23,185 nt of DNA from Candidatus Sigynarchaeum calidifontis (GTDB lineage: Archaea; Asgardarchaeota; Lokiarchaeia; Sigyniarchaeales; Sigyniarchaeaceae), in the NCBI GenBank assembly GCA_030587475.2, contig JAUQYZ020000015.1:1-23185 (forward strand), read 5' to 3'. The notes below the pieces were generated by a model, which saw only the letters and a program-made list of their open reading frames with translations, was not told the DNA's origin and did no database searches. The number at the start of each line of letters is the position of its first letter. Position 1 is the stretch's first letter. Made by a program: the position numbers and the translations under genes. Shown piece after piece: positions 2,403-18,288 of this stretch.

Positions 2403-2515
2403 ACAAATCACGAAATCATGCGGTGCTTGTTGCTAGATCGTCCGGCGGCCTATTAATATGTATCCTTTGAAAAGCATATTAGAACTCGCTGGATAAAATA
2501 GAATCAAGATGCATC

Positions 2516-2950
2516 ATGCCGGGCAAGGATGATAAGAACAAGGTCATCTACGTCACGATCACCATTCAAACCTATAAAAAAGGCGACATCATCGAACAGA
2601 AGGAAAAGACAGATAATGAAGGCATCATCGAGGTTCGCACCCACAGCAAGAAGGAGAGTACCTCGATGGACGGCAAGGTAACCAAGAAGGAGACGTGGAA
2701 AACGACCGAATATCGCATCCCTCTCTTCAAGCTCGGGCTCACGGCCGAGGCGTCGAAAAGTGACATCCTCAAGGTGCTGAACGATCCCGACCACATCACC
2801 AACAAGACCGTCTCCGAGATACTCAAGAAGCTCCGAGACGATTACGACGGTATCAAGCCCATGAACTTCTCGCAGAAATACGTTTTCAAGACGGAGAGGT
2901 TCAAGAAAAGAAAGGATTTCACCCCGAAAAAGAAAGTGATGATGGGTTAA
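2516..2950 (+). CDS. Hypothetical Lys-rich soluble protein (144 aa)
   Basis: Clean ATG-TAA ORF with host-like codon bias. No motif recognised. Confidence 0.75.
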   Translation: MPGKDDKNKVIYVTITIQTYKKGDIIEQKEKTDNEGIIEVRTHSKKESTSMDGKVTKKETWKTTEYRIPLFKLGLTAEASKSDILKVLNDPDHITNKTVSEILKKLRDDYDGIKPMNFSQKYVFKTERFKKRKDFTPKKKVMMG

Positions 2951-3000
2951 AATCCAAGATCATTTCTTGTACATATGCATTGCCGGACAAATTTAGCTAC

Positions 3001-3080
3001 TATCCGGCTAAAACCGTCAATATATAAGTTCATCCAGCTAAAACCGCCAATGTACGAGTTCATCCGGCTAAAATTGCTAA
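3001..3080. repeat. Degenerate direct tandem repeat, 30-bp unit, about 2.6 copies
   Basis: Units: 3001 TATCCGGCTAAAACCGTCAATATATAAGTT; 3031 CATCCAGCTAAAACCGCCAATGTACGAGTT; 3061 CATCCGGCTAAAATTGCTAA. Units 1 and 2 match at 24/30. Confidence 0.8.
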
Positions 3081-3260
3081 ATCCGCCATCTTGAAGATGA
3101 ATATGCAGCCATTAATCCCACATCGCCATTACTTTTTAATGCCTCCCCGCGAAGAATTATCCAGGTTCGAGTAAAAATTGCTGTACGGCTGCCTATTGCA
3201 CATCGTGGATTCGTTTGATCGTCTGATCCCCTGGAAAAATACAGATAGAGGCCTTTTTGC

Positions 3261-5429
3261 TTGTCCCCCTCCTTAGAATTTTATTTCAAGCCCAAAGTGA
3301 TCGCCGTCATCGGCGGCAGTTCCACCAAGGGAAAAGTTGGCAATGCAGTGATGCGGAATCTCGTCACACGCCACGCGGATACGAAGGTCTACGCGGTAAA
3401 CCCCAAGGGCGAGTCGATCGTTGAGGGTTTTCCTTGCGTACCGCGCGTCGTGGATATACCAGAGAAAGTCGTGGATATCGCGATCATTTGCATCCCTGCA
3501 CGGATGGTACTCGAAGCGGTCGAGGACTGCATCGCGAAAAGGGTCAAGGGTCTCGTGATCATCACGGCTGGCTTCAAGGAGATCGGCCCCGAGGGCGCGA
3601 GGCTCGAACAACAGTTCTTGGCGAGGTGCAAGGAAACCGGCACGCGCGTGCTTGGCCCGAACTGCCTCGGCTTGATTAGCCTCTACCACAACTCGTCTTT
3701 CGCGCCCTTGACGCCAAAAGAAGGTACGGTTGCGATGATCAGCCAATCGGGAGCCGTCATGACAGGGGTGAGCGATTGGAGCGCGGTTAACGATCTCGGC
3801 TTCTCGGCGTTTATCTCCCTCGGCAACAAGGCGGATGTCGACGAGGCGGACATCATCGAGTACCTCGCCCAGGATCCAGCGACCCGCATCATCGTCTGTT
3901 ATCTTGAGGCGATCAACGACGGCACGAAGTTCGTCAACATCGTATCGAAGGCGACCAAGATCAAGCCTGTAATCATCCTCAAGTCAGGCGTGTCCGACGC
4001 GGGTGCTCGCGCGGCGTCCAGCCATACTGGCAGTCTCGCTGGTTCCGACATTGCATACGACCTCGCGTTCGCGAAGGCCGGCGTGATACGTGCCAAGACG
4101 CTCTCGGAGCTCTTCTCGTATTGCAAGACGTTCACCGTGTCGAAATCCCCGCTGTCCGAGAACTTCGCGATCGTCACGAACGCGGGAGGGCCGGGCATCA
4201 TCTCGACTGACGCCTTCGTGGCGGAGGGCGTCGGGATCGCGAGGTTTTCCCCGGCCATCATCCAGGAGCTGCGTGATAAGCTTCCGGCCGAGGCCGCTGT
4301 TTATAACCCCGTCGATATCGTCGGGGATGCCCCGCCGGAGCGTTATGATGCAGCCCTCCGGACCGTTTTCAAGGATTCCATCGAGAACTGTGCTGGATCT
4401 CTCGTTATTCTCACGCCGCAAGCAAACACGTTTCCATCTCGCGTGGCGGATATGATGATCAAGATCCACGAGGAATTTCCTAACCACGTCATGCTCGCGA
4501 GCTTCATCGGCGGTAAAAACGTGATGGAAGGCGCTGCGAAGCTGCGCGCGGCCGGGATCCCATGCTATGACTTTCCCGAAGAGGCCATCAAGAACATCGC
4601 CGGTCTTATCAAGTTCACAAGGTTCCGCAAGCGGCCCCCGGAGACCGACATACCCGACGCGAAGATCGACAAGGCGCGGATACAAGCAATCCTCGATGGT
4701 GCGAAGAATGAAAACCGGCCCATGCTCTTGAACTACGAGTGTAGTGACGTGTTTTCAGCGTACGGCATCCCACATCCAAAAACTCGACTCGCCAAGACAC
4801 AGAACGAGGCACGCAAGCTTGCAAAGGAAATAGGGTTCCCGGTCGTTCTGAAGATCGTTTCCCCCCAGATCGTTCATAAAACCGACGTCGGCGGCGTCAT
4901 ACTCAACGTCAAGACCGAAGACGAGGCCGAGCAAGCGTTCGTGAAGATTCTCTCGTCAGTCCAGCAGATGCGCCCGGATGCGACGATTCATGGCATCGAG
5001 GTCCAGGAGATGATCAACCGGGCTGCGAAGAAGAAAACCACCGAGCTCATCATCGGCATGTCGCGCGACCCGCAGTTCGGCCCGCTCATTATGTTCGGCA
5101 TGGGTGGCATTTACGTCAACTTCCTCAAGGATGTTTCCTTCCGGCTCGGCAATTTTATGAGCGTGGAGGATTCGAGGAAGATCATCCAGGAGACAAAGAC
5201 ATATGCGCTCTTGCGTGGCGTCCGTGGCGAAATGCCGTCCGACATCGAGCAAGTGGAAATGGTTCTCCAGAAAGTTTCAAGAATCGTTCGCGATTTTCCC
5301 GACATCGTCGAGCTGGACATCAATCCGCTGCTTGCCTTCGCGAAAGGCGAGGGCGTTTCGGCTGTCGACATCAAGATCACGGTGAAGTTGTCGCAAGCAA
5401 CACCTGCCCAGCATTCAGGGCACCACTAG
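3261..5429 (+). CDS. acdAB: Acetate/acyl-CoA ligase (ADP-forming), fused alpha-beta ACD family
   Basis: CoA-binding start (IAVIGGS...GKVG), ITAGFKE, GPNCLG, SQSGA, the phospho-His motif SHTGSLAG, NPVDIVGDA, and a C-terminal ATP-grasp (KIVSPQIVHKTDVGGV, DPQFGP, ELDINPL). TTG start. Confidence 0.92.
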   Translation: MSPSLEFYFKPKVIAVIGGSSTKGKVGNAVMRNLVTRHADTKVYAVNPKGESIVEGFPCVPRVVDIPEKVVDIAIICIPARMVLEAVEDCIAKRVKGLVIITAGFKEIGPEGARLEQQFLARCKETGTRVLGPNCLGLISLYHNSSFAPLTPKEGTVAMISQSGAVMTGVSDWSAVNDLGFSAFISLGNKADVDEADIIEYLAQDPATRIIVCYLEAINDGTKFVNIVSKATKIKPVIILKSGVSDAGARAASSHTGSLAGSDIAYDLAFAKAGVIRAKTLSELFSYCKTFTVSKSPLSENFAIVTNAGGPGIISTDAFVAEGVGIARFSPAIIQELRDKLPAEAAVYNPVDIVGDAPPERYDAALRTVFKDSIENCAGSLVILTPQANTFPSRVADMMIKIHEEFPNHVMLASFIGGKNVMEGAAKLRAAGIPCYDFPEEAIKNIAGLIKFTRFRKRPPETDIPDAKIDKARIQAILDGAKNENRPMLLNYECSDVFSAYGIPHPKTRLAKTQNEARKLAKEIGFPVVLKIVSPQIVHKTDVGGVILNVKTEDEAEQAFVKILSSVQQMRPDATIHGIEVQEMINRAAKKKTTELIIGMSRDPQFGPLIMFGMGGIYVNFLKDVSFRLGNFMSVEDSRKIIQETKTYALLRGVRGEMPSDIEQVEMVLQKVSRIVRDFPDIVELDINPLLAFAKGEGVSAVDIKITVKLSQATPAQHSGHH

Positions 5430-5524: not shown

Positions 5525-6592
5525 ATGACGAAATTACGAAGCCTTTATCTGAGTTCCGTGCACACGAGCTCTGGCAAAACTGAAACAGCTCTCGGAATCG
5601 GCCTGCTCTTGAAGGATAAAGGTTACAAGGTCGCGTATTTCAAGCCTTTCAGCAGGCGAAAGGGGAATGCCACGATCGACACGGAGCTCGAGATCACCGC
5701 GAAGACCTTCGGTATGGAGACGGCAAAGCAGAGCCCAATCTTTATCGAGCCAGTTTATTTCGAGACACTCCAGAAGCAGAAGGACGAATACCGCAAGAAA
5801 ATCATCGCGGCTTACAAAGGCCTCAAGGAGGAATTTGACGTGGTGCTCATCGAGGGCGCGAACAAATTCAACAGTTTCATGTCGTTCGATCTTGACGACG
5901 CGACGCTTGCCAACCAGATGGACAATTGCGCCATCATGTCCGTGAACCTGTTCGAGAGCGATACAGATATCTGTGACTTGTTGATGCAAAGGGAATTTCT
6001 CAAGATGCGTAAGGGGACTTATATCGGCTGTATTTTGAACCGGGTTCCCAAGATAATGGTTGCGCGTGCGAAACAAGAGTTCCTCCCGTATCTCAAGACT
6101 GCCGGCATCCCGTGCTTTGGCATCGTCGAGAAGGATCAGCGGCTCACGGCACCCACGTTCCGGGAAATTATGGAAGCCGTGGGCGGAAAATTACTCGACG
6201 AGGACGAGTCCCGTTACGACCTCGACGTGCTCGTCAAGAACGCCATCGTTGGTGCCATGTCCGCGCACTCGGCCCTTTCGTATCTCCGGACGAGCGGCCA
6301 GCATGCGGTCGTTATCACGGGCGGTGATCGTTCGGACATCGTGCTCACGGCACTCGAGACAAGCGTCGCTGGTATTGTCTTGACCGGGAATCTCTATCCG
6401 GATCAGCACGTTATCTCTGCGTGCCAGGAGAAGCACGTGCCCCTCGTTCTCGTGCCACATGACACGTACACGACGGTGACGAAGGTCGAGCAGACCGTGG
6501 CAGGTTTACAAGTCAACGAGGCTAGCGTTTGCAAGGAGCTTTTCGGAAAAGCCATCGATCTTGATGCGATCATCAAGACCTTGAAAATGTGA
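5525..6592 (+). CDS. Phosphotransacetylase N-terminal-like protein (BioD-like P-loop plus DRTGG domain), lacking the catalytic PTA domain
   Basis: SSGKT P-loop, YFKP, VLIEG, ILNRV and VITGGDRSDI (DRTGG), followed by VLTG and DTYT. GAGGTC RBS upstream. Confidence 0.88.
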   Translation: MTKLRSLYLSSVHTSSGKTETALGIGLLLKDKGYKVAYFKPFSRRKGNATIDTELEITAKTFGMETAKQSPIFIEPVYFETLQKQKDEYRKKIIAAYKGLKEEFDVVLIEGANKFNSFMSFDLDDATLANQMDNCAIMSVNLFESDTDICDLLMQREFLKMRKGTYIGCILNRVPKIMVARAKQEFLPYLKTAGIPCFGIVEKDQRLTAPTFREIMEAVGGKLLDEDESRYDLDVLVKNAIVGAMSAHSALSYLRTSGQHAVVITGGDRSDIVLTALETSVAGIVLTGNLYPDQHVISACQEKHVPLVLVPHDTYTTVTKVEQTVAGLQVNEASVCKELFGKAIDLDAIIKTLKM

Positions 6593-13008: not shown

Positions 13009-14223
13009 ATGGAACATCCCCGGAATAATCAGGCCGGCACGTGGCCCCCGCCGGGGTTCCACGTCATGATCAAGCCCGCGGGCGCGTCGTGCAACCTGGC
13101 GTGCCAGTATTGCTTCTACCTTCCCAAGAAGGCGCTCTACCCCGGCAAGCAGACGCGCATGGACGATGCGGTCCTCGAGGCATTCACGCGGCAATACATC
13201 GAGGCGCAAGCCGTGCCAGAAGTCACGTTCGGGTGGCAAGGCGGTGAGCCCCTGCTCATGGGGCTCGATTTCTTCAAGAAAGCTATATTCTTTCAGCAAA
13301 AGTACAAGAGGCCGGGGATCAAGGTCTCGAACACGATGCAAACGAACGGCACCTTGCTCGACGACGCGTGGGGCAGGTTCCTTCACGATAACGGGTTCCT
13401 CGTCGGCATCAGCATCGACGGGCCACCGGCGATCCACGACATGTACCGCAAGGACAGGGCCGGCAATCCCTCGTTCAAGCGGGTGCGGCAAGGGGTGAAC
13501 GTGCTCAAGCGTCACCACGTCGACTTCAACGTGCTATGCTGCGTCCACGCGGGCAATGAACACCATCCAGTAGAGGTATACACGTATCTCCGCGACGCGA
13601 TCAAGGCGCAATTCGTCCAATTCATCCCAGTGGTCGAGCGGGAAGGCCAAGGCGTCTCGAAGCGCTCGGTATCGGGCCAGGGTTGGGGGTCGTTCTTGAT
13701 CGGCGTGTTTAACGAGTGGGTGCGGCACGACGTGGGGCGCGTGTTCGTGCAGACGTTCGACGCGGCGCTCGCGTCGTGGATGCACGTGCCCCCGGCCGTG
13801 TGCGTGTACGCGGAAACCTGCGGAGCGGCACTCGCGCTAGAGCATAACGGGGACATGTATGCCTGCGACCATTATGTCGATCCGGCTCACTTTCTCGGGA
13901 ATATAATGGTGGATGGCTTGAAAAAAAGCATTGCTTCGGCAGTGCAAGAGCGCTTCGGCCTCGACAAGCGTGACAAGCTTCCACGCCAATGCATCGAATG
14001 CGATTACCTGTTCGCGTGCAACGGGGAGTGCCCCCGGAATCGCATCAAAAAGGAGGCTGGCTCGGGCAATCCCGTGAATCACTTGTGCGAGGGATACAAG
14101 GCATTCTTCGCCCACGTGGATCCCTACATGCGGTTCATGGCCTGGGAAGTAGCGAACGCGCGTCCAGCGGCAAATGTCATGGCACGCGTCGCCAAGGGCG
14201 GGTCGATGGCCGTGGAAAAGTGA
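13009..14223 (+). CDS. Anaerobic sulfatase-maturating radical SAM/SPASM enzyme (anSME/AslB/ChuR family)
   Basis: KP.G..CNLACQYCFY, WQGGEP, QTNGTLL, GISIDGP and QFIPVVE. SPASM cysteines appear in CVYAETC, YACDHY, CIEC..LFACNGECP and HLC. Confidence 0.92.
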   Translation: MEHPRNNQAGTWPPPGFHVMIKPAGASCNLACQYCFYLPKKALYPGKQTRMDDAVLEAFTRQYIEAQAVPEVTFGWQGGEPLLMGLDFFKKAIFFQQKYKRPGIKVSNTMQTNGTLLDDAWGRFLHDNGFLVGISIDGPPAIHDMYRKDRAGNPSFKRVRQGVNVLKRHHVDFNVLCCVHAGNEHHPVEVYTYLRDAIKAQFVQFIPVVEREGQGVSKRSVSGQGWGSFLIGVFNEWVRHDVGRVFVQTFDAALASWMHVPPAVCVYAETCGAALALEHNGDMYACDHYVDPAHFLGNIMVDGLKKSIASAVQERFGLDKRDKLPRQCIECDYLFACNGECPRNRIKKEAGSGNPVNHLCEGYKAFFAHVDPYMRFMAWEVANARPAANVMARVAKGGSMAVEK

Positions 14224-14282
14224 TAAAGTACCTCGATGAAATGATAGCATTGACGAGTATTCGCCCATCAACGATGACGATC

Positions 14283-15344
14283 ATGGAGGAAAAAGAGAAA
14301 AAGGGCGGCGAGTTACTCCGATACGCCCGTTTATTCGGTTGATCATGCAAGCTGCCGGAGGACGACCTCAAGGACGTTCTAGGCAAGACCAACATCTACG
14401 CATCCACGGAAAACGGCCATTCCGGATATGGTGATGATGCATCCGTGATCCCTATAAATGACCAACAATATCTCGTGCAGAATATCGACGTGTTCACGCC
14501 CATCGTCGACGATCCAGAGACGCAAGGCCGCATCACCGCTTGCAACGTGACTAACGATTTGTTCGCGTGCGGCGTGCTCGATGTCACGAGCTTCTTGTCG
14601 TTCATCGCCACGCCGGCCGAGGTACCCCGCTGGGCGCTGGCCGGGATCTTGAACGGCATGCAAGCATTCATCAAGGATTTCGGCGTGAAAATCACCAAGG
14701 GACAGACCGTCCAAAATCCATGGCTCCTCGTCGGTGGCTCTGCATCGGGTATCGTGGAGAAGGATCAGCTAGTCTCTCATTCTGGAGTGAAGCCAGGCGA
14801 CGTGCTCGTTCTCACCAAGCCCCTTGGCGTGCAATCCGTTATGGCCATGTCAAGGATCATCAAGAACCCGGACATGATCGGCGATGTCACCGCGATAATG
14901 CCCGAGAGCGAGGTACAGCAAGCGATCGACAAAGCCATCGCTCTCATGACCACGAGCAATCGGCCCGTCGTGGAGGCGACCAGGGCCCTCGCAACGAGCA
15001 GCACGAACGGGTTCAAGGTCCACGCTATGACCGACGTGACGGGCTTCGGCATCGTCGGACACGCTAGCCACCTTGCAAAAGCCAGCGGGGTCGATATTGA
15101 TATCACTCGCGTCCCCGTCGTGAAACATGCGGTTTCCTTGTCGAAGCTCTTCGGTTTTCCTCTGCAGGAGGGCAGGGCAGCCGAAACTGCCGGGGGCATG
15201 CTCGTTGCCGTGGCGAAATCGGACGAGCGACGGTTCCTGGACGCGCTGCACGATAGGGGAATTGCCGGTCATGTCGTCGGCCGGGCCAAGGCCGGCTCCG
15301 GGGTGGCATCACTTTCCGGTGCAGCCGAATACGTGGATGTGTAA
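14283..15344 (+). CDS. selD: Selenide, water dikinase (selenophosphate synthetase), a selenoprotein with UGA-Sec at codon 20
   Basis: ORFs 13989..14342 and 14445..15344 share a frame and are separated only by TGA 14340-14342. Read-through gives MEEKEKKGGELLRYARLFG-U-SCKLPEDDL...GDDASV..VQNIDVFTPIVDDP..G.I.ACN..ND...LTKPLG...AMTDVTGFGIVGH...ETAGGML (353 aa). Alternative ATG at 14274. Confidence 0.95.
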
Positions 15345-15346
15345 TC

Positions 15347-15419
15347 TCACGGGTTGATGAAAGGTCGAGCAAACCGCCGGTCGACCTGGAGATGCCTGCC
15401 GAGCAACGGCAGCCCGTGA
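15347..15419 (+). promoter_or_regulatory. SECIS element in the selD 3' UTR (eukaryote/Lokiarchaeota-like AUGA-GA kink-turn type)
   Basis: Helix I is TCACGGG(15347-53)/CCCGTGA(15413-19). The core AUGAA(15357-61)/GGAG(15388-91) gives tandem G.A/A.G pairs. Helix II is AGGTCGA(15362-68)/TCGACCT(15381-87), with apical unpaired AAA (15371-73). It starts 3 nt after the selD stop. Confidence 0.8.
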
Positions 15420-15477
15420 ATGTACCCTTTCCTACAACTTTTTGTGGAACCGAAGCTATCCCTCGCGCGTGATATAG

Positions 15478-16293
15478 TTGGATCTCGTCGATTTGCACGT
15501 GCACACGTATCGCTGCCACCACGCGAGGGGCACTGCCGAGGACATGGTCAAGTCAGCAATCCAAAAGGGCTTGAAAGCCATCGGCATCAACGACCACTTC
15601 CCGATGCGATACTTGCCAGCCCCCATTCCCGTACAAGATTATGCGATGGAGTTATCCGAGGTTCCCGATCATCTCAAGGAACTGAAACAGTTAAAAGAGA
15701 CTTACAACGGCAAGATCGATGTCCTCATCGGGTTCGAGATCGATTTCTACCAGCCGGCCATCGATGCCATCAAGCGAAGCATCGAACCGTTCGTGGACGA
15801 TTTCGATTATGTTTACGGGTCCGTGCACGTGGTTCGCGGTTTTCCCGTCGATGACGAGAAGTTCTTGCGCAAGTGGGACGGGCAAGACGTCGATGCCGTC
15901 TTCGCCGAGTATTACCAGGCGCTGGCCAGCATGGCGAGCACCCGGTTGTTCGACGTCGTCGGGCATTTCGACCTGCCCAAGAAATACAAGAAGATCCCGG
16001 TGGGGAATCTGGACGCGCAAATCACCACCGCGCTGGATGCCATCCGTTCCGCTGGCATGGCCATGGAAATCAACACGGCTGGCCTCAGGAAGCCCATCGG
16101 CGAGATTTATCCATCCCGGCACATCCTGGAAATGGCCATCAAGGAGTCGATCCCGGTCACGTTGGGGTCTGACGCGCACGATCCCGCCGAGGTCGGACAT
16201 GAATTTAGCAAGGCAGTCGCTCTTGCAAGACAAGTTGGCTTTTCATCCATCGTTTCCTTCAAGAAACGGCACCCGATCACGATTCCTTTGTGA
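15478..16293 (+). CDS. hisJ: Histidinol-phosphatase, HisJ/HisK PHP family
   Basis: DLHVHT..CHHA.G, NDHFP, GFEIDF, GSVH, GHFDLPKKY, EINTAGLRKP..EIYPS and GSDAH.P..VG. TTG start. Confidence 0.85.
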   Translation: MDLVDLHVHTYRCHHARGTAEDMVKSAIQKGLKAIGINDHFPMRYLPAPIPVQDYAMELSEVPDHLKELKQLKETYNGKIDVLIGFEIDFYQPAIDAIKRSIEPFVDDFDYVYGSVHVVRGFPVDDEKFLRKWDGQDVDAVFAEYYQALASMASTRLFDVVGHFDLPKKYKKIPVGNLDAQITTALDAIRSAGMAMEINTAGLRKPIGEIYPSRHILEMAIKESIPVTLGSDAHDPAEVGHEFSKAVALARQVGFSSIVSFKKRHPITIPL

Positions 16294-16386: not shown

Positions 16387-18288
16387 ATGTCTGACCAATT
16401 AACCGACGAGCAAAAAGAACTTTATCTTGATGTTTTGAAGGAAGGCGTAACTGCATTCGATCGCTTCGTGTCTCGCGGCGATGTGGAGGACCCCGTGGAC
16501 ATTCCAAACCCGCGGCGAGATATCGACCGCGCCGTCATGAATTCCATCAAGAAATGCGTCGCTGACAAGACAGCGAGGTTCATTCCGCTTCTCGGCGCAG
16601 CCGGCTCGGGGAAAACCCACGCGTTCTGGGCGTTCAAGGACGCCGAGAAAAAGCTCTTGCAAGGAGAAGGTGCGGAGGGCGCGGAGAAGGTCGAGCCGAA
16701 CTGGACAGTCGTCTACATTCCCAGCCCGCCCACGGCGGTGCGCATCCTCTTCCACATTTACACGTGCTTGATCAACGAGATACCGGACATCATCGATAAA
16801 GTTGCCAAGGCGCTCGTCCACAACTACGGCGGCGACAAGAAGAAATTCGGCATCTTCGGTAAAGCCGATCTCGACGAGGTCATCGCCCAAGCGACGAACG
16901 ACTATCCTGGCGTGTTCGCGGACTGCGTCAAGACGCTCATCACGTACGGTATGGTCTCAGATAACACGAAGCGCGCGTTTGCCAAGCGCTGGCTGCTCGG
17001 CGAGGCCGTGGACGAGAAAGAGCTCGAGGAGCTCAAGATCCAGTCGGTCATCGAGAGCGACGACGTGTGCCTCGCCATGATCAAGCTCATCTCGAAATAC
17101 TTAAACAAGGTGCTCGTGCTCTACTTCGACGAGTTCGAGTCGCCCTATCGCACGCACGGGCCCGAGGCAGAAGTCAAGTTCCTCGAAACGCTCAAGCGCC
17201 TCTACAACGAGGTGCAGAACATCGTCATCATCGCGGCGATCCTCAAGGACATCTGGCCACGCGTGCTCGAAGTCGCTGACGCCCCGTTCAAGTCCCGCAT
17301 GGAGCCGGAGGTCGAGCTCAAGCCGTTCACTTTTGGTGATGTCAAGCTCTGGTTCGCGAAGGTGCAAGAGCATTTCTGGACGCTCAACAACCTCGACATG
17401 CCCCCGGATCCCCTGTTCCCGCTCAACGAGACCGTGCTCAAGATCATCTTCGACCGCACGCACGGGAACCCGCGCGAGACCATCAAGCTCACGCGCGTCT
17501 TCATCGACAAGCTCGTCTACGGCGACCTCACGCTCGCCGAGATCACCGAGCAAACCAAGCCGGAGGCCGTTCCCGCGAAAGCGGAACCAGCGGTCGTCAC
17601 GACAACCCCGCTCGCTAGTCTCACCGCGGCAAAAACCGCGCCGGCAGTTCCCGTTGCGACCCCACCGCCTTCCTCGGCTGCTGCACAACGTGTCGAGGAG
17701 ATCATCGATGCCGAAGGGCTCATCGTCGACGTGAACCCTGCATCCGTGCTCGGTGCCGTCACGAAGGGCATCCAGAAGGTCGCGGCCAAGGTCGGCCAGT
17801 CCCCCGATGCGATCAAGTCCACGCTCGGCTACAAGTTCTTCGTGGGCGGGAAAGAGAAGGAGATCGGCGCGCTCATCGAGTTCTCCGGCCAGAAAATCGG
17901 CATCGACATCCCCGCCGTGAAGACCTTCGATCGAAGCGGTGGCGTTGCCGCGTTCTACTCGGCAAAGCGCCTGGTCGATGGCCTCGCGAACAATACCTAC
18001 GTTCGGGCGATCATCATCATGCCCGAATCCACGAGCGGCGAGAAAACGCAGTATCTTTTCGAGCAGAACCCCGGCTTGCTCGATTTCAAGCTCAACCAGA
18101 AGCAAGCCGAGGACCTGATCCGCTGCGCGATGCTCCCCGACGCGGAGCCGACCAAGGAAACGTACATCTTCTTCAACAAGGTTACCGGGTTGAACATCCC
18201 CGTCCCGGAACCCGCGCCTGCTGCACCAGCTACACCAGCTGCACCAGCGGCGCCGGGAGTGCCACCAAGCGGGGAATTGCCCAAGTAA
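16387..18288 (+). CDS. P-loop AAA+-type ATPase (BrxD/DUF2791-like) with a Pro/Ala-rich linker and an unknown C-terminal alpha/beta domain
   Basis: Walker A GAAGSGKT, AKRWLLGE, Walker B LVLYFDEFE, a possible Arg finger in FKSRM and the lid motif THGNPRE. A PAKAEPA...PPPSS linker precedes a domain of about 170 aa and a PAAPATPAAP tail. TATA-like TATAAATA at about 16329. Confidence 0.8.
   Translation: MSDQLTDEQKELYLDVLKEGVTAFDRFVSRGDVEDPVDIPNPRRDIDRAVMNSIKKCVADKTARFIPLLGAAGSGKTHAFWAFKDAEKKLLQGEGAEGAEKVEPNWTVVYIPSPPTAVRILFHIYTCLINEIPDIIDKVAKALVHNYGGDKKKFGIFGKADLDEVIAQATNDYPGVFADCVKTLITYGMVSDNTKRAFAKRWLLGEAVDEKELEELKIQSVIESDDVCLAMIKLISKYLNKVLVLYFDEFESPYRTHGPEAEVKFLETLKRLYNEVQNIVIIAAILKDIWPRVLEVADAPFKSRMEPEVELKPFTFGDVKLWFAKVQEHFWTLNNLDMPPDPLFPLNETVLKIIFDRTHGNPRETIKLTRVFIDKLVYGDLTLAEITEQTKPEAVPAKAEPAVVTTTPLASLTAAKTAPAVPVATPPPSSAAAQRVEEIIDAEGLIVDVNPASVLGAVTKGIQKVAAKVGQSPDAIKSTLGYKFFVGGKEKEIGALIEFSGQKIGIDIPAVKTFDRSGGVAAFYSAKRLVDGLANNTYVRAIIIMPESTSGEKTQYLFEQNPGLLDFKLNQKQAEDLIRCAMLPDAEPTKETYIFFNKVTGLNIPVPEPAPAAPATPAAPAAPGVPPSGELPK

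What the first reader, a model, noticed from the sequence alone, without database searches (positions are those of the whole stretch)
14274..15419. Hidden selenoprotein: selD recoded at an in-frame UGA by a distant 3'-UTR SECIS
Seen: TGA 14340-14342 sits in the SelD catalytic motif (G-U-S-C-K), and both flanks translate as SelD in one frame, so the ORF track's 299-aa call lacks the active site. Known: E. coli SelD has Cys17 and Lys20 here, and archaeal SelD and eukaryotic SPS2 carry Sec. Seen: no strong hairpin directly follows the UGA, but an AUGA/GA stem-loop starts 3 nt after the stop, about 1 kb from the UGA. Inference: this organism decodes Sec using a eukaryote-style 3'-UTR element, as reported for Lokiarchaeota, and should have a wider selenoproteome that gene callers truncate.
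Basis: partly seen in the sequence, partly recalled or inferred. Interest (0 to 1): 0.8.

Follow-up and report, generated by a model that had tools for sequence, protein, structure and literature searches.

The report
Selenocysteine SelD gene with Asgard SECIS
This is a real selenophosphate synthetase (selD) gene of an Asgard archaeon whose internal UGA "stop" is read as selenocysteine under the direction of a folded RNA signal just behind the gene; this arrangement is already published for these archaea, so it is a sound but ordinary find.

Summary
TGA 14340-14342 is in frame in a G-U-S-C-K motif. The read-through protein (14274 or, more likely, 14283 to 15344) is a full-length SelD above NCBIfam's curated cut-off. 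The UGA aligns with the catalytic Sec/Cys position.

The same TGA is present in the selD of nearly all 59 matching genomes among 61 searched in the order, so it is neither an error nor a pseudogene.

The genome (4.99 Mb MAG; nearest named relative "Promethearchaeota archaeon", an Asgard archaeon) holds tRNA-Sec(UCA), SepSecS, a PSTK-like kinase and archaeal SelB/EFSec. SelA was not found.

No significant hairpin follows the UGA. A 73-nt element at 15347-15419, starting 2 nt after the TAA, has the AUGA...AAA...GA core of the published Asgard "lokiSECIS"/eSECIS-like elements.

Sec-SelD with such a SECIS was described by Mariotti 2016 and Huang 2024 (SelD in >90% of Sec-using Asgard archaea). This is therefore a new member of a known kind.

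One addition: the SelD SECIS is a three-way junction. A covarying third hairpin (GNRA-like loop) is conserved across Loki-, Hel-, Thor- and Hermod-type MAGs. It is not mentioned in the text of the four papers I read.

This scan had already flagged three-armed SECIS elements on other contigs of this genome.

The parts
14274..15344 (+). selD (selenophosphate synthetase) coding sequence read through one UGA; 356 aa from ATG 14274, or 353 aa from the likelier start ATG 14283; stop TAA 15342-15344
   Evidence: AIRS and AIRS_C domains; NF010705 at 318 bits (cut-off 291); best solved relatives are human SEPHS1 and other SelD; the same-genus ortholog starts MEEN..., matching MEEK... at 14283.
14340..14342 (+). 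UGA codon read as selenocysteine (residue 23 from 14274, residue 20 from 14283) in the motif G-U-S-C-K
   Evidence: One in-frame TGA in the selD match of nearly all 59 matching genomes among 61 searched in the order. It sits at the same G-U-[S/N/K]-C-K position in all 37 full-length copies of the 30 loci read and in 16 named Asgard MAG loci.
14445..15344 (+). the 299-aa ORF that a stop-to-stop ORF caller reports; it is the C-terminal part of selD without the active-site motif
15347..15419 (+). whole SECIS element (three-way junction), 73 nt, in the 3' UTR
   Evidence: MFE -32 to -33 kcal/mol, z = -3.14; a covariance model built only from distant AT-rich orthologs finds it end to end as the best hit in the locus (16.7 bits, E 0.018); genome-wide rarity of the pattern.
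15347..15353 (+). helix 1, 5' strand (UCACGGG), pairs with 15413-15419
   Evidence: Helix 1 is present in all parsed orthologs. Pair counts.
15357..15360 (+). AUGA of the SECIS core (bulged strand of the kink-turn-like motif); GUGA in the same-genus ortholog
   Evidence: Invariant ATGA in alignment A2.
15362..15368 (+). helix 2 (upper stem), 5' strand AGGUCGA, pairs with 15381-15387 (7 bp); A15361 faces G15388
   Evidence: A15362-U15387 becomes G-C in the same-genus ortholog.
15369..15380 (+). 12-nt apical loop GCAAACCGCCGG with unpaired AAA at 15371-15373; at most a 2-bp ministem, so closer to the type I form
   Evidence: AAAC is conserved in orthologs, which mostly have a 3-bp ministem (type II).
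15381..15387 (+). helix 2, 3' strand UCGACCU
15389..15390 (+). GA of the SECIS core (non-bulged strand), first part of the conserved GAGA
   Evidence: G1 at least 90% conserved and A2 invariant in the tail alignments.
15396..15412 (+). third arm: hairpin CUGCCG-AGCAA-CGGCAG, inserted between the core GA and the 3' strand of helix 1
   Evidence: Covariation (4 of 5 pairs changed on both sides; 5 of 5 pairs, 95% of cells paired against 65% in shuffles). The same-family ortholog has CUAUCC-CGCAA-GGAUAG.
15413..15419 (+). helix 1, 3' strand (CCCGUGA)

Best explanation
The region encodes the selenophosphate synthetase SelD of an Asgard archaeon.

Codon UGA 14340-14342 is decoded as selenocysteine, the catalytic residue in G-U-S-C-K. 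Decoding uses Sec-tRNA(Sec), made by the archaeal/eukaryotic route: Ser-tRNA(Sec), then PSTK, then SepSecS with selenophosphate from SelD itself. An archaeal SelB/EFSec delivers it.

Recoding is directed in cis, over about 1 kb, by the 73-nt SECIS in the 3' UTR (15347-15419). The element has a kink-turn-like AUGA/GA core, a 7-bp upper stem, an A-rich apical loop, a lower helix, and a third hairpin set into the 3' side between core and lower helix.

Shown here:
- gene identity
- position and conservation of the UGA
- presence of the Sec machinery
- presence, conservation and covariation of the RNA structure

Inferred, not shown:
- that Sec is actually inserted
- that this element is the signal
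- what reads the element. No SBP2-like protein is present, so L7Ae, the ribosome or SelB itself are open candidates.
For: SelD identity:
- NF010705 at 318.2 bits (cut-off 291), TIGR00476 at 213 bits, AIRS and AIRS_C domains.
- U aligned to the Sec/Cys/Thr site of human SEPHS1.

UGA conserved: one in-frame TGA in the selD match of nearly all 59 matching genomes among 61 searched in the order, at the same G-U-x-C-K wherever read, and in Thor-, Hel- and Hermod-labelled MAGs.

Sec machinery in the same genome:
- tRNA-Sec at 67.5 bits (cut-off 47), anticodon TCA.
- SepSecS at 472.8 bits (cut-off 224.85) and Pfam SepSecS at 394 bits.
- A kinase whose only solved relatives are M. jannaschii PSTK, E 5.6e-20.
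- SelB with the aSelB_III domain, matching M. maripaludis SelB end to end at 312 bits.
- No SelA found.

SECIS:
- Fold z = -3.14, with no structure behind the UGA.
- The layout recurs behind selD in the order and in other Asgard classes.
- Covariation supports all helices: 95.9% of cells paired, 0 of 500 shuffles reach the covariation score.
- A model trained on distant orthologs picks this exact site.
- The same pattern follows other UGA-containing frames in this genome, including an HdrA-like one.

Literature: Loki SPS is a selenoprotein with its own eukaryote-like SECIS (PMC4989117). SelD occurs in >90% of Sec-using Asgard archaea (PMC11227280).
Against: There is no direct evidence of Sec insertion (no proteomics or labelling).

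Rfam has no matching family, so cmscan gave nothing at this site.

The model R1 misses the element under default filters and in the whole-genome search. It scores only 16.7 bits with filters off.

The PSTK-like and SelB genes fall below NCBIfam's curated cut-offs (103 against 290.5 bits; 241.7 against 242.25 bits).

The genome is a MAG (89% complete, 5% contaminated), so co-residence of selD and the machinery rests on binning.

The apical part of this element lacks the clear ministem seen in most selD SECIS elements.
Confidence: 0.9

Rival explanations
1. The UGA is a true stop. selD is a pseudogene or is expressed only as the 299-aa C-terminal piece (or as a Sec-less protein from a downstream start).
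For: A standard ORF caller gives only 14445-15344. No experimental proof of read-through is available.
Against: Coding conservation runs unbroken across the UGA: the HMM and PDB alignments start at residues 10-13. The TGA is kept at the catalytic position in nearly all 59 matching genomes among 61 searched. A complete Sec pathway that needs SelD is present, and no second selD exists in the genome.
Confidence: 0.03
2. The TGA is an assembly or sequencing error for TGC/TGT (Cys-SelD).
For: None beyond the general error rate of MAGs.
Against: The same codon is TGA in independent assemblies of nearly all 59 matching genomes searched and in 16 named MAG loci. A SECIS follows the gene.
Confidence: 0.01
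3. Recoding is real but is directed by something other than the 15347-15419 element. Candidates are a bacterial-type hairpin just after the UGA, or a Methanococcus-type GAA_A SECIS elsewhere. The 3' element would then be a terminator or mRNA-stability structure.
For: The function of the element is inferred, not tested. A second small conserved hairpin with a U5 run lies at 15429-15449.
Against: The sequence after the UGA folds like shuffles (z = -0.25). SelA was not found and no bacterial-type SelB passes the model's cut-off. The 3' element carries the AUGA...AAA...GA signature, is conserved with covariation behind selD across Asgard classes, and recurs behind other UGA-containing genes in this genome.
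Confidence: 0.05

Closest known systems
Lokiarchaeota SPS/SelD selenoprotein gene with its own 'SPS lokiSECIS' (Mariotti et al. 2016, PMC4989117)
   Same: Sec at the homologous catalytic UGA. The SECIS lies directly behind the stop codon in the 3' UTR. It has AUGA before the stem, adenines at the start of the apical part and GA after the stem, with a shorter main stem than in eukaryotes. The Sec machinery is archaeal type, and no SBP2 is present.
   Different: The published SPS element is described as always having an extra stem in the apical region (type II-like). Here the apical part is a 12-nt loop with at most 2 bp. The text of that paper does not mention the third hairpin between GA and the lower helix. 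This genome is GC-rich (54%) and belongs to a different family of the order than most of the AT-rich relatives I compared.
Asgard eSECIS-like models, types I and II (Huang, Xiao & Zhang 2024, PMC11227280)
   Same: It fits their key-region model: GA_[G/A]A core, upper stem of 7-15 bp (7 here), apical loop of 8-20 nt (12 here). GUGA_GA occurs in the same-genus ortholog, as they report for Thor selD. They report SelD as the most widespread Asgard selenoprotein, and two or more selD copies in many genomes, which I also saw.
   Different: They report that selD mainly has type II; this one is nearer type I. They treat the stretch between core and lower stem as an internal loop. In selD it holds a covarying hairpin. 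Peptide searches of their supplement did not find this protein or its same-genus ortholog (not conclusive because their sequence lines are wrapped).
Eukaryotic SEPHS2 and its type II SECIS, read by SBP2 and eEFSec
   Same: Sec-SelD; 3'-UTR location far from the UGA; AUGA/AAR/GA signature. The protein is closer to human SEPHS1 (162 bits) than to bacterial SelD (81-87 bits) among solved structures.
   Different: The upper stem is shorter. No SBP2-like protein is present: only two L7Ae-domain ORFs of about 124 aa. The elongation factor is archaeal SelB-like. A third arm is present.
Methanococcales/Methanopyrus SelD with the euryarchaeal SECIS (GAA_A bulge)
   Same: Sec-SelD, a 3'-UTR SECIS, and the PSTK/SepSecS/aSelB pathway. 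NF010705, the best-matching model, is the SelD equivalog that this protein passes.
   Different: The RNA signal is of a different type: an AUGA/GA kink-turn-like core rather than a GAA_A bulge with three G-C pairs.
k-junction (Wang et al. 2014, PMC4005666)
   Same: [quoted passage not shown]
   Different: Here a 5-7-nt linker separates the GA from the third helix, and the 5' loop has 5 nt rather than 3-4. No 3D evidence exists. This is a resemblance only.

Membership tests
SelD / selenophosphate synthetase (NCBIfam NF010705, TIGR00476) | Whole-protein score above the curated equivalog cut-off | tested here: met
   NF010705 at 318.2 bits against 291; TIGR00476 at 213.2 bits against 125.
SelD / selenophosphate synthetase (NCBIfam NF010705, TIGR00476) | AIR-synthase-related N- and C-terminal domains | tested here: met
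   PF00586 at 63 bits and PF02769 at 74 bits.
SelD / selenophosphate synthetase (NCBIfam NF010705, TIGR00476) | N-terminal glycine-rich catalytic motif with Sec/Cys followed by x-C-K (E. coli Cys17/Lys20; from established knowledge) | tested here: met
   G-U-S-C-K at 14337-14351. It aligns to G-T-G-C-K of human SEPHS1. G-U-[S/N/K]-C-K is found in all orthologs read.
Asgard eSECIS-like element / lokiSECIS (PMC4989117, PMC11227280) | Core 5'-[A/G]UGA ... [G/A]A-3' flanking the upper stem | tested here: met
   AUGA 15357-15360 and GA 15389-15390.
Asgard eSECIS-like element / lokiSECIS (PMC4989117, PMC11227280) | Upper stem of 7-15 bp and apical loop of 8-20 nt (type I), or a ministem of 2-8 bp (type II) | tested here: met
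   7-bp stem (15362-68 with 15381-87) and a 12-nt loop, which fits type I. A type II reading needs a 2-bp ministem with a 3-nt loop and is marginal.
Asgard eSECIS-like element / lokiSECIS (PMC4989117, PMC11227280) | Unpaired adenines at the start of the apical loop or bulge | tested here: met
   AAA at 15371-15373. AAAC is conserved in orthologs.
Asgard eSECIS-like element / lokiSECIS (PMC4989117, PMC11227280) | Located in the 3' UTR close behind a gene with an in-frame Sec-UGA | tested here: met
   It starts 2 nt after the TAA of selD.
Asgard eSECIS-like element / lokiSECIS (PMC4989117, PMC11227280) | Actually directs Sec insertion | not testable with these tools
   This needs a reporter assay or proteomics.
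Archaeal/eukaryotic Sec-encoding system | tRNA-Sec with UCA anticodon | tested here: met
   G000:C88:23673-23761(-), RF01852 at 67.5 bits against 47; ARAGORN calls tRNA-SeC(tca).
Archaeal/eukaryotic Sec-encoding system | SepSecS present and bacterial SelA absent | tested here: met
   TIGR03531 at 472.8 bits against 224.85. No SelA match, with the caveat that the genome is 89% complete.
Archaeal/eukaryotic Sec-encoding system | PSTK | tested here: inconclusive
   TIGR03574 at 103.4 bits, below the 290.5 cut-off. Pfam KTI12 at 95 bits. The only solved relatives are M. jannaschii PSTK. The match covers the N-terminal kinase domain only.
Archaeal/eukaryotic Sec-encoding system | Sec-specific elongation factor (aSelB/EFSec) | tested here: met
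   PF21440 aSelB_III at 44 bits. End-to-end match to M. maripaludis SelB 4ac9 at 312 bits. The bacterial selB model scores 241.7 against 242.25 bits.
Eukaryotic SECIS system (SBP2-dependent) | SBP2 (a long L7Ae-domain SECIS-binding protein) | tested here: not met
   Only two L7Ae-domain ORFs, of 123 and 125 aa. This agrees with PMC4989117 and PMC9723677.
k-junction (PMC4005666) | [quoted passage not shown] | tested here: inconclusive
   The insertion site in the secondary structure matches, but a 5-7-nt linker intervenes. Coaxial stacking cannot be tested here.

The most novel reading that the evidence does not exclude
The SECIS of Asgard selD genes (and apparently of other selenoprotein genes in this genome) may be an obligate three-way junction rather than the two-helix eukaryote-like hairpin drawn in the literature.

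It could be a k-junction-like fold or a docking site that replaces the missing SBP2. That would bear on how the eukaryotic SECIS arose from the selD element.
Probability: 0.35. Interest if true: 0.45.

Novelty: new member of a known kind. Interest (0 to 1): 0.25.

Why it matters
For annotation: the gene caller's 299-aa product lacks the catalytic residue. The correct product is a selenoprotein of about 353 aa. The same correction applies to selD across this order.

For biology: it adds a GC-rich, previously unlisted lineage to the Asgard archaea that use the eukaryote-like SECIS. It shows that the selD element of this lineage is a compact, type I-like variant.

The only part that could interest a specialist is the conserved third arm of the selD SECIS. 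[quoted passage not shown] An extra conserved helix with a GNRA-like loop is therefore a concrete handle for experiments on how the signal is read.

Tried and rejected
- **Rfam scan of the window at E up to 10.** Nothing at the SECIS or the UGA. Rfam seems to hold no Asgard SECIS family, so this carries no weight.
- **Bacterial-type SECIS after the UGA.** Rejected: fold z = -0.25, SelA not found.
- **Covariance model R1, built from 20 AT-rich orthologs.** It misses the window's GC-rich element under default filters and in the own-genome search (two weak unrelated hits). It finds the element only with filters off. R1 is too sequence-bound (effective N 2.6) to enumerate the selenoproteome.
- **MAFFT alignments of whole elements across families (A1, A6).** They were out of register, and RNAalifold on A6 gave no useful consensus. 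I therefore counted pairs only on alignments that MAFFT kept in register (A2, A7).
- **Alignment A7.** Its rows were chosen with a parser that demands at least 4 bp in the third arm, so its percentage paired is inflated. The compensatory changes between lineages are not.
- **Peptide look-up in the supplement of PMC11227280.** No hit for this SelD or its same-genus ortholog. This is inconclusive because their sequence lines are wrapped.
- **Pfam on three other candidate selenoprotein ORFs (C129, C249, C14).** No family. I did not pursue them.
- **The hairpin at 15429-15449 as a terminator.** Its energy is not better than shuffles, so I left it as a note.

Full report
**1. Observation**

The window has TGA at 14340-14342. 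Reading it as U, the frame from ATG 14274 runs without another stop to TAA 15342-15344. It gives ...ELLRYARLFG-U-SCKLPEDDLKDVLGK.... The mechanical ORF list reports only the GTG-started 299-aa piece 14445-15344.

The read-through protein has:
- AIRS and AIRS_C domains.
- A pass on two SelD equivalog models: NF010705 at 318.2 bits (cut-off 291, residues 13-355) and TIGR00476 at 213.2 bits (cut-off 125).
- Human SEPHS1 as its best solved relative (161.9 bits). There the U column falls on the T of G-T-G-C-K, the position that is Sec in SEPHS2 and Cys17 in E. coli (the residue identities come from established knowledge).

By comparison with the same-genus ortholog, which starts MEEN..., the true start is more likely ATG 14283 (MEEK...) than 14274.

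**2. Not an error or pseudogene**

I searched 61 genomes of the same order with the protein, and 59 matched. Nearly every selD match carries exactly one in-frame TGA. The few rows without one were truncated matches or one partial second copy.

In the 30 loci I read, all 37 full-length copies have the TGA at the same G-U-[S/N/K]-C-K. The same holds in 16 named MAG loci labelled Promethearchaeota, Helarchaeota, Thorarchaeota, Hermodarchaeota and, in one case, Bathyarchaeota. Many relatives have two tandem selD copies, each with its own TGA.

**3. Organism and machinery**

The window is contig C31 of a 4.99-Mb, 269-contig, 54% GC genome that is 89% complete. The nearest named record (72% identical SelD) is "MAG: Promethearchaeota archaeon isolate Zod_Metabat.1055". 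Promethearchaeota is the NCBI phylum of the Asgard/Loki lineage.

The genome contains:
- **tRNA-Sec:** 67.5 bits (cut-off 47), anticodon TCA.
- **SepSecS:** 472.8 bits (cut-off 224.85), about 9 kb from the tRNA on contig C88.
- **A PSTK-like kinase:** 332 aa; KTI12/PSTK fold; the only solved relatives are M. jannaschii PSTK. It is below the TIGR03574 cut-off, so I rate it inconclusive.
- **An archaeal SelB:** 491 aa, with the aSelB_III domain, matching M. maripaludis SelB end to end.

No SelA was found. Only two short L7Ae-domain ORFs are present, so there is no SBP2. This is the archaeal/eukaryotic Sec pathway.

**4. The recoding signal**

The 81 nt after the UGA fold like shuffled sequence (z = -0.25). 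The 3' UTR folds well (z = -3.14).

The element spans 15347-15419:

| Part | Coordinates | Sequence / note |
|---|---|---|
| Helix 1 | 15347-53 with 15413-19 | lower helix |
| 5' internal loop | 15354-56 | UUG |
| Core, 5' side | 15357-60 | AUGA |
| Non-Watson-Crick pair | A15361 facing G15388 | as at the 3b.3n position of some k-turns (my knowledge) |
| Helix 2 | 15362-68 with 15381-87 | 7 bp |
| Apical loop | 15369-80 | GCAAACCGCCGG, 12 nt, with AAA at 15371-73 |
| Core, 3' side | 15389-92 | GAGA |
| Linker | 15391-95 | GAUGC; its first two nt are the end of GAGA |
| Third hairpin | 15396-15412 | CUGCCG-AGCAA-CGGCAG |

This is the AUGA...AAA...GA signature of the lokiSECIS (PMC4989117). It also meets the type I criteria of the Asgard eSECIS-like model (PMC11227280, section 7).

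**5. Comparative support**

Behind selD in the relatives, the same layout is plain to the eye and to a simple parser.

Alignment A2 holds 20 AT-rich orthologs and was made by MAFFT, not fitted to a structure. On it:
- The four-helix structure has 95.9% of cells paired, against 88.7% in shuffles.
- 8 pairs change on both sides.
- None of 500 shuffles reaches the covariation score. Slid controls give 26-51% pairing.
- The third arm alone has 4 of 5 pairs with double changes.

Alignment A7 is an ungapped MAFFT alignment of 22 "tails" from the AT-rich family plus Thor/Hermod-type MAGs. On it:
- All 5 third-arm pairs change on both sides.
- 95% of cells are paired, against 65% in shuffles.
- Caveat: the rows were picked by a parser that requires a hairpin.

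Other comparative points:
- The third-arm loop is mostly NGCAA, GCAA or GCGA, which is GNRA-like.
- The same-family ortholog (L016) has CUAUCC-CGCAA-GGAUAG where this window has CUGCCG-AGCAA-CGGCAG.
- The same-genus ortholog shows a compensatory A-U to G-C change in helix 2, and GUGA for AUGA.
- Model R1, trained only on the AT-rich set, picks window 15349-15417 end to end as the best hit of the locus with filters off (16.7 bits, E 0.018). It also finds the site behind selD in most Thor/Hermod loci.

**6. Chance and the wider selenoproteome**

A pattern scan of both strands of the whole genome gave 35 hits at score 15 or more and 8 at or above this element's 18.6. Among those 8:
- One follows an HdrA-like 706-codon frame with one UGA (Fer4 and Pyr_redox_2 domains).
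- One follows an ORF with ...YRS-U-SGAVC...
- One follows a 77-aa ORF with C-E-T-U.
- One is this selD.

Earlier notes of this scan had flagged the same loci.

**7. What is known**

- Mariotti et al. 2016 reported Loki SPS as a selenoprotein with a distinct, type II-like SECIS. They found no SBP2.
- Huang et al. 2024 found SelD in >90% of Sec-using Asgard archaea, mostly with type II eSECIS-like elements. They also report GUGA_GA in Thor selD and two or more selD genes in 51 genomes.
- A 2026 review repeats the type I/II model.

The finding therefore belongs to a published kind. This lineage's protein was not found in Huang's supplement (inconclusive).

None of the four texts I could read mentions a helix between the core GA and the lower stem. 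Figures and some supplements were not readable.

In topology, a third helix in the non-bulged strand of a k-turn is what defines a k-junction. Here a linker intervenes, so this is a lead only.

**8. Verdict**

- Observation: confirmed.
- Interpretation: supported.
- Novelty: low (new member of a known kind).
- Residual interest: the conserved third arm of the selD SECIS, which this scan has already noted for other genes of this genome.

Noticed in passing
L016:2524-2591; L049-L061 around 1578-1660: In the same-family genome G002 and in Thor/Hermod-type MAGs, the selD stop codon UGA is itself the UGA of the SECIS core ([A/G]UGA). The 5' strand of helix 1 (GAGACCG in Thor) lies inside the coding sequence. 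In this window the stop (TAA) and the core are separate.
   Followed up: partly
L018, L025, L027, L028, L029, L032, L035, L036, L038 (relatives): Many relatives carry two tandem selD genes (motifs G-U-S-C-K and G-U-N-C-K), each with its own TGA and its own three-armed SECIS. Multiple selD copies are reported in PMC11227280.
   Followed up: partly
window 15429-15449: A small hairpin UUCC-U-ACAA-CUUU-UUGU-GGAA contains a U5 run just after the SECIS. It is conserved in the same-genus ortholog. Its energy is not better than shuffles (z = 0.25). It may be a transcription stop signal, or simply conserved spacer before the PHP phosphatase gene.
   Followed up: partly
G000:C14:2380-2461 (- strand) and the frame at 2444-3274: This is the highest-scoring three-arm pattern in the genome (GUGA core). 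The frame running into it has two adjacent UGA codons in ...TTDPGC-U-U-HKFEE.... Pfam gives no family. It is an unverified candidate selenoprotein.
   Followed up: partly
G000:C249:6177-6410 and element 6459-6540: A 77-aa ORF with the N-terminal motif VYCETUGG (a CxxU redox motif) ends 48 nt before a three-armed element with a long (23-nt) apical part. There is no Pfam hit.
   Followed up: partly
G000:C88:23673-23761 and C88:32795-34138: tRNA-Sec and SepSecS lie about 9 kb apart on the same strand of one contig.
   Followed up: no
window 14274-15344: Among solved structures, this archaeal SelD is much closer to human SEPHS1 (162 bits) and a Leishmania enzyme (144 bits) than to Aquifex or E. 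coli SelD (81-87 bits).
   Followed up: no
window 16387-18288: A 633-aa ORF has a weak BrxC/BrxD (BREX ATPase) P-loop match (24 bits) and Pro/Ala-rich low-complexity stretches. Its neighbours are an anaerobic sulfatase maturase (13009-14223) and a HisJ-family PHP histidinol phosphatase (15478-16293, TTG start).
   Followed up: no
L048 (JAOZIE010000014.1): A contig labelled 'Candidatus Bathyarchaeota archaeon' encodes a Sec-SelD (G-U-S-C-K) 41% identical to this one. I could not see an AUGA/GA element in its first 110 nt of 3' UTR. It may be mis-binned or may use another element.
   Followed up: no
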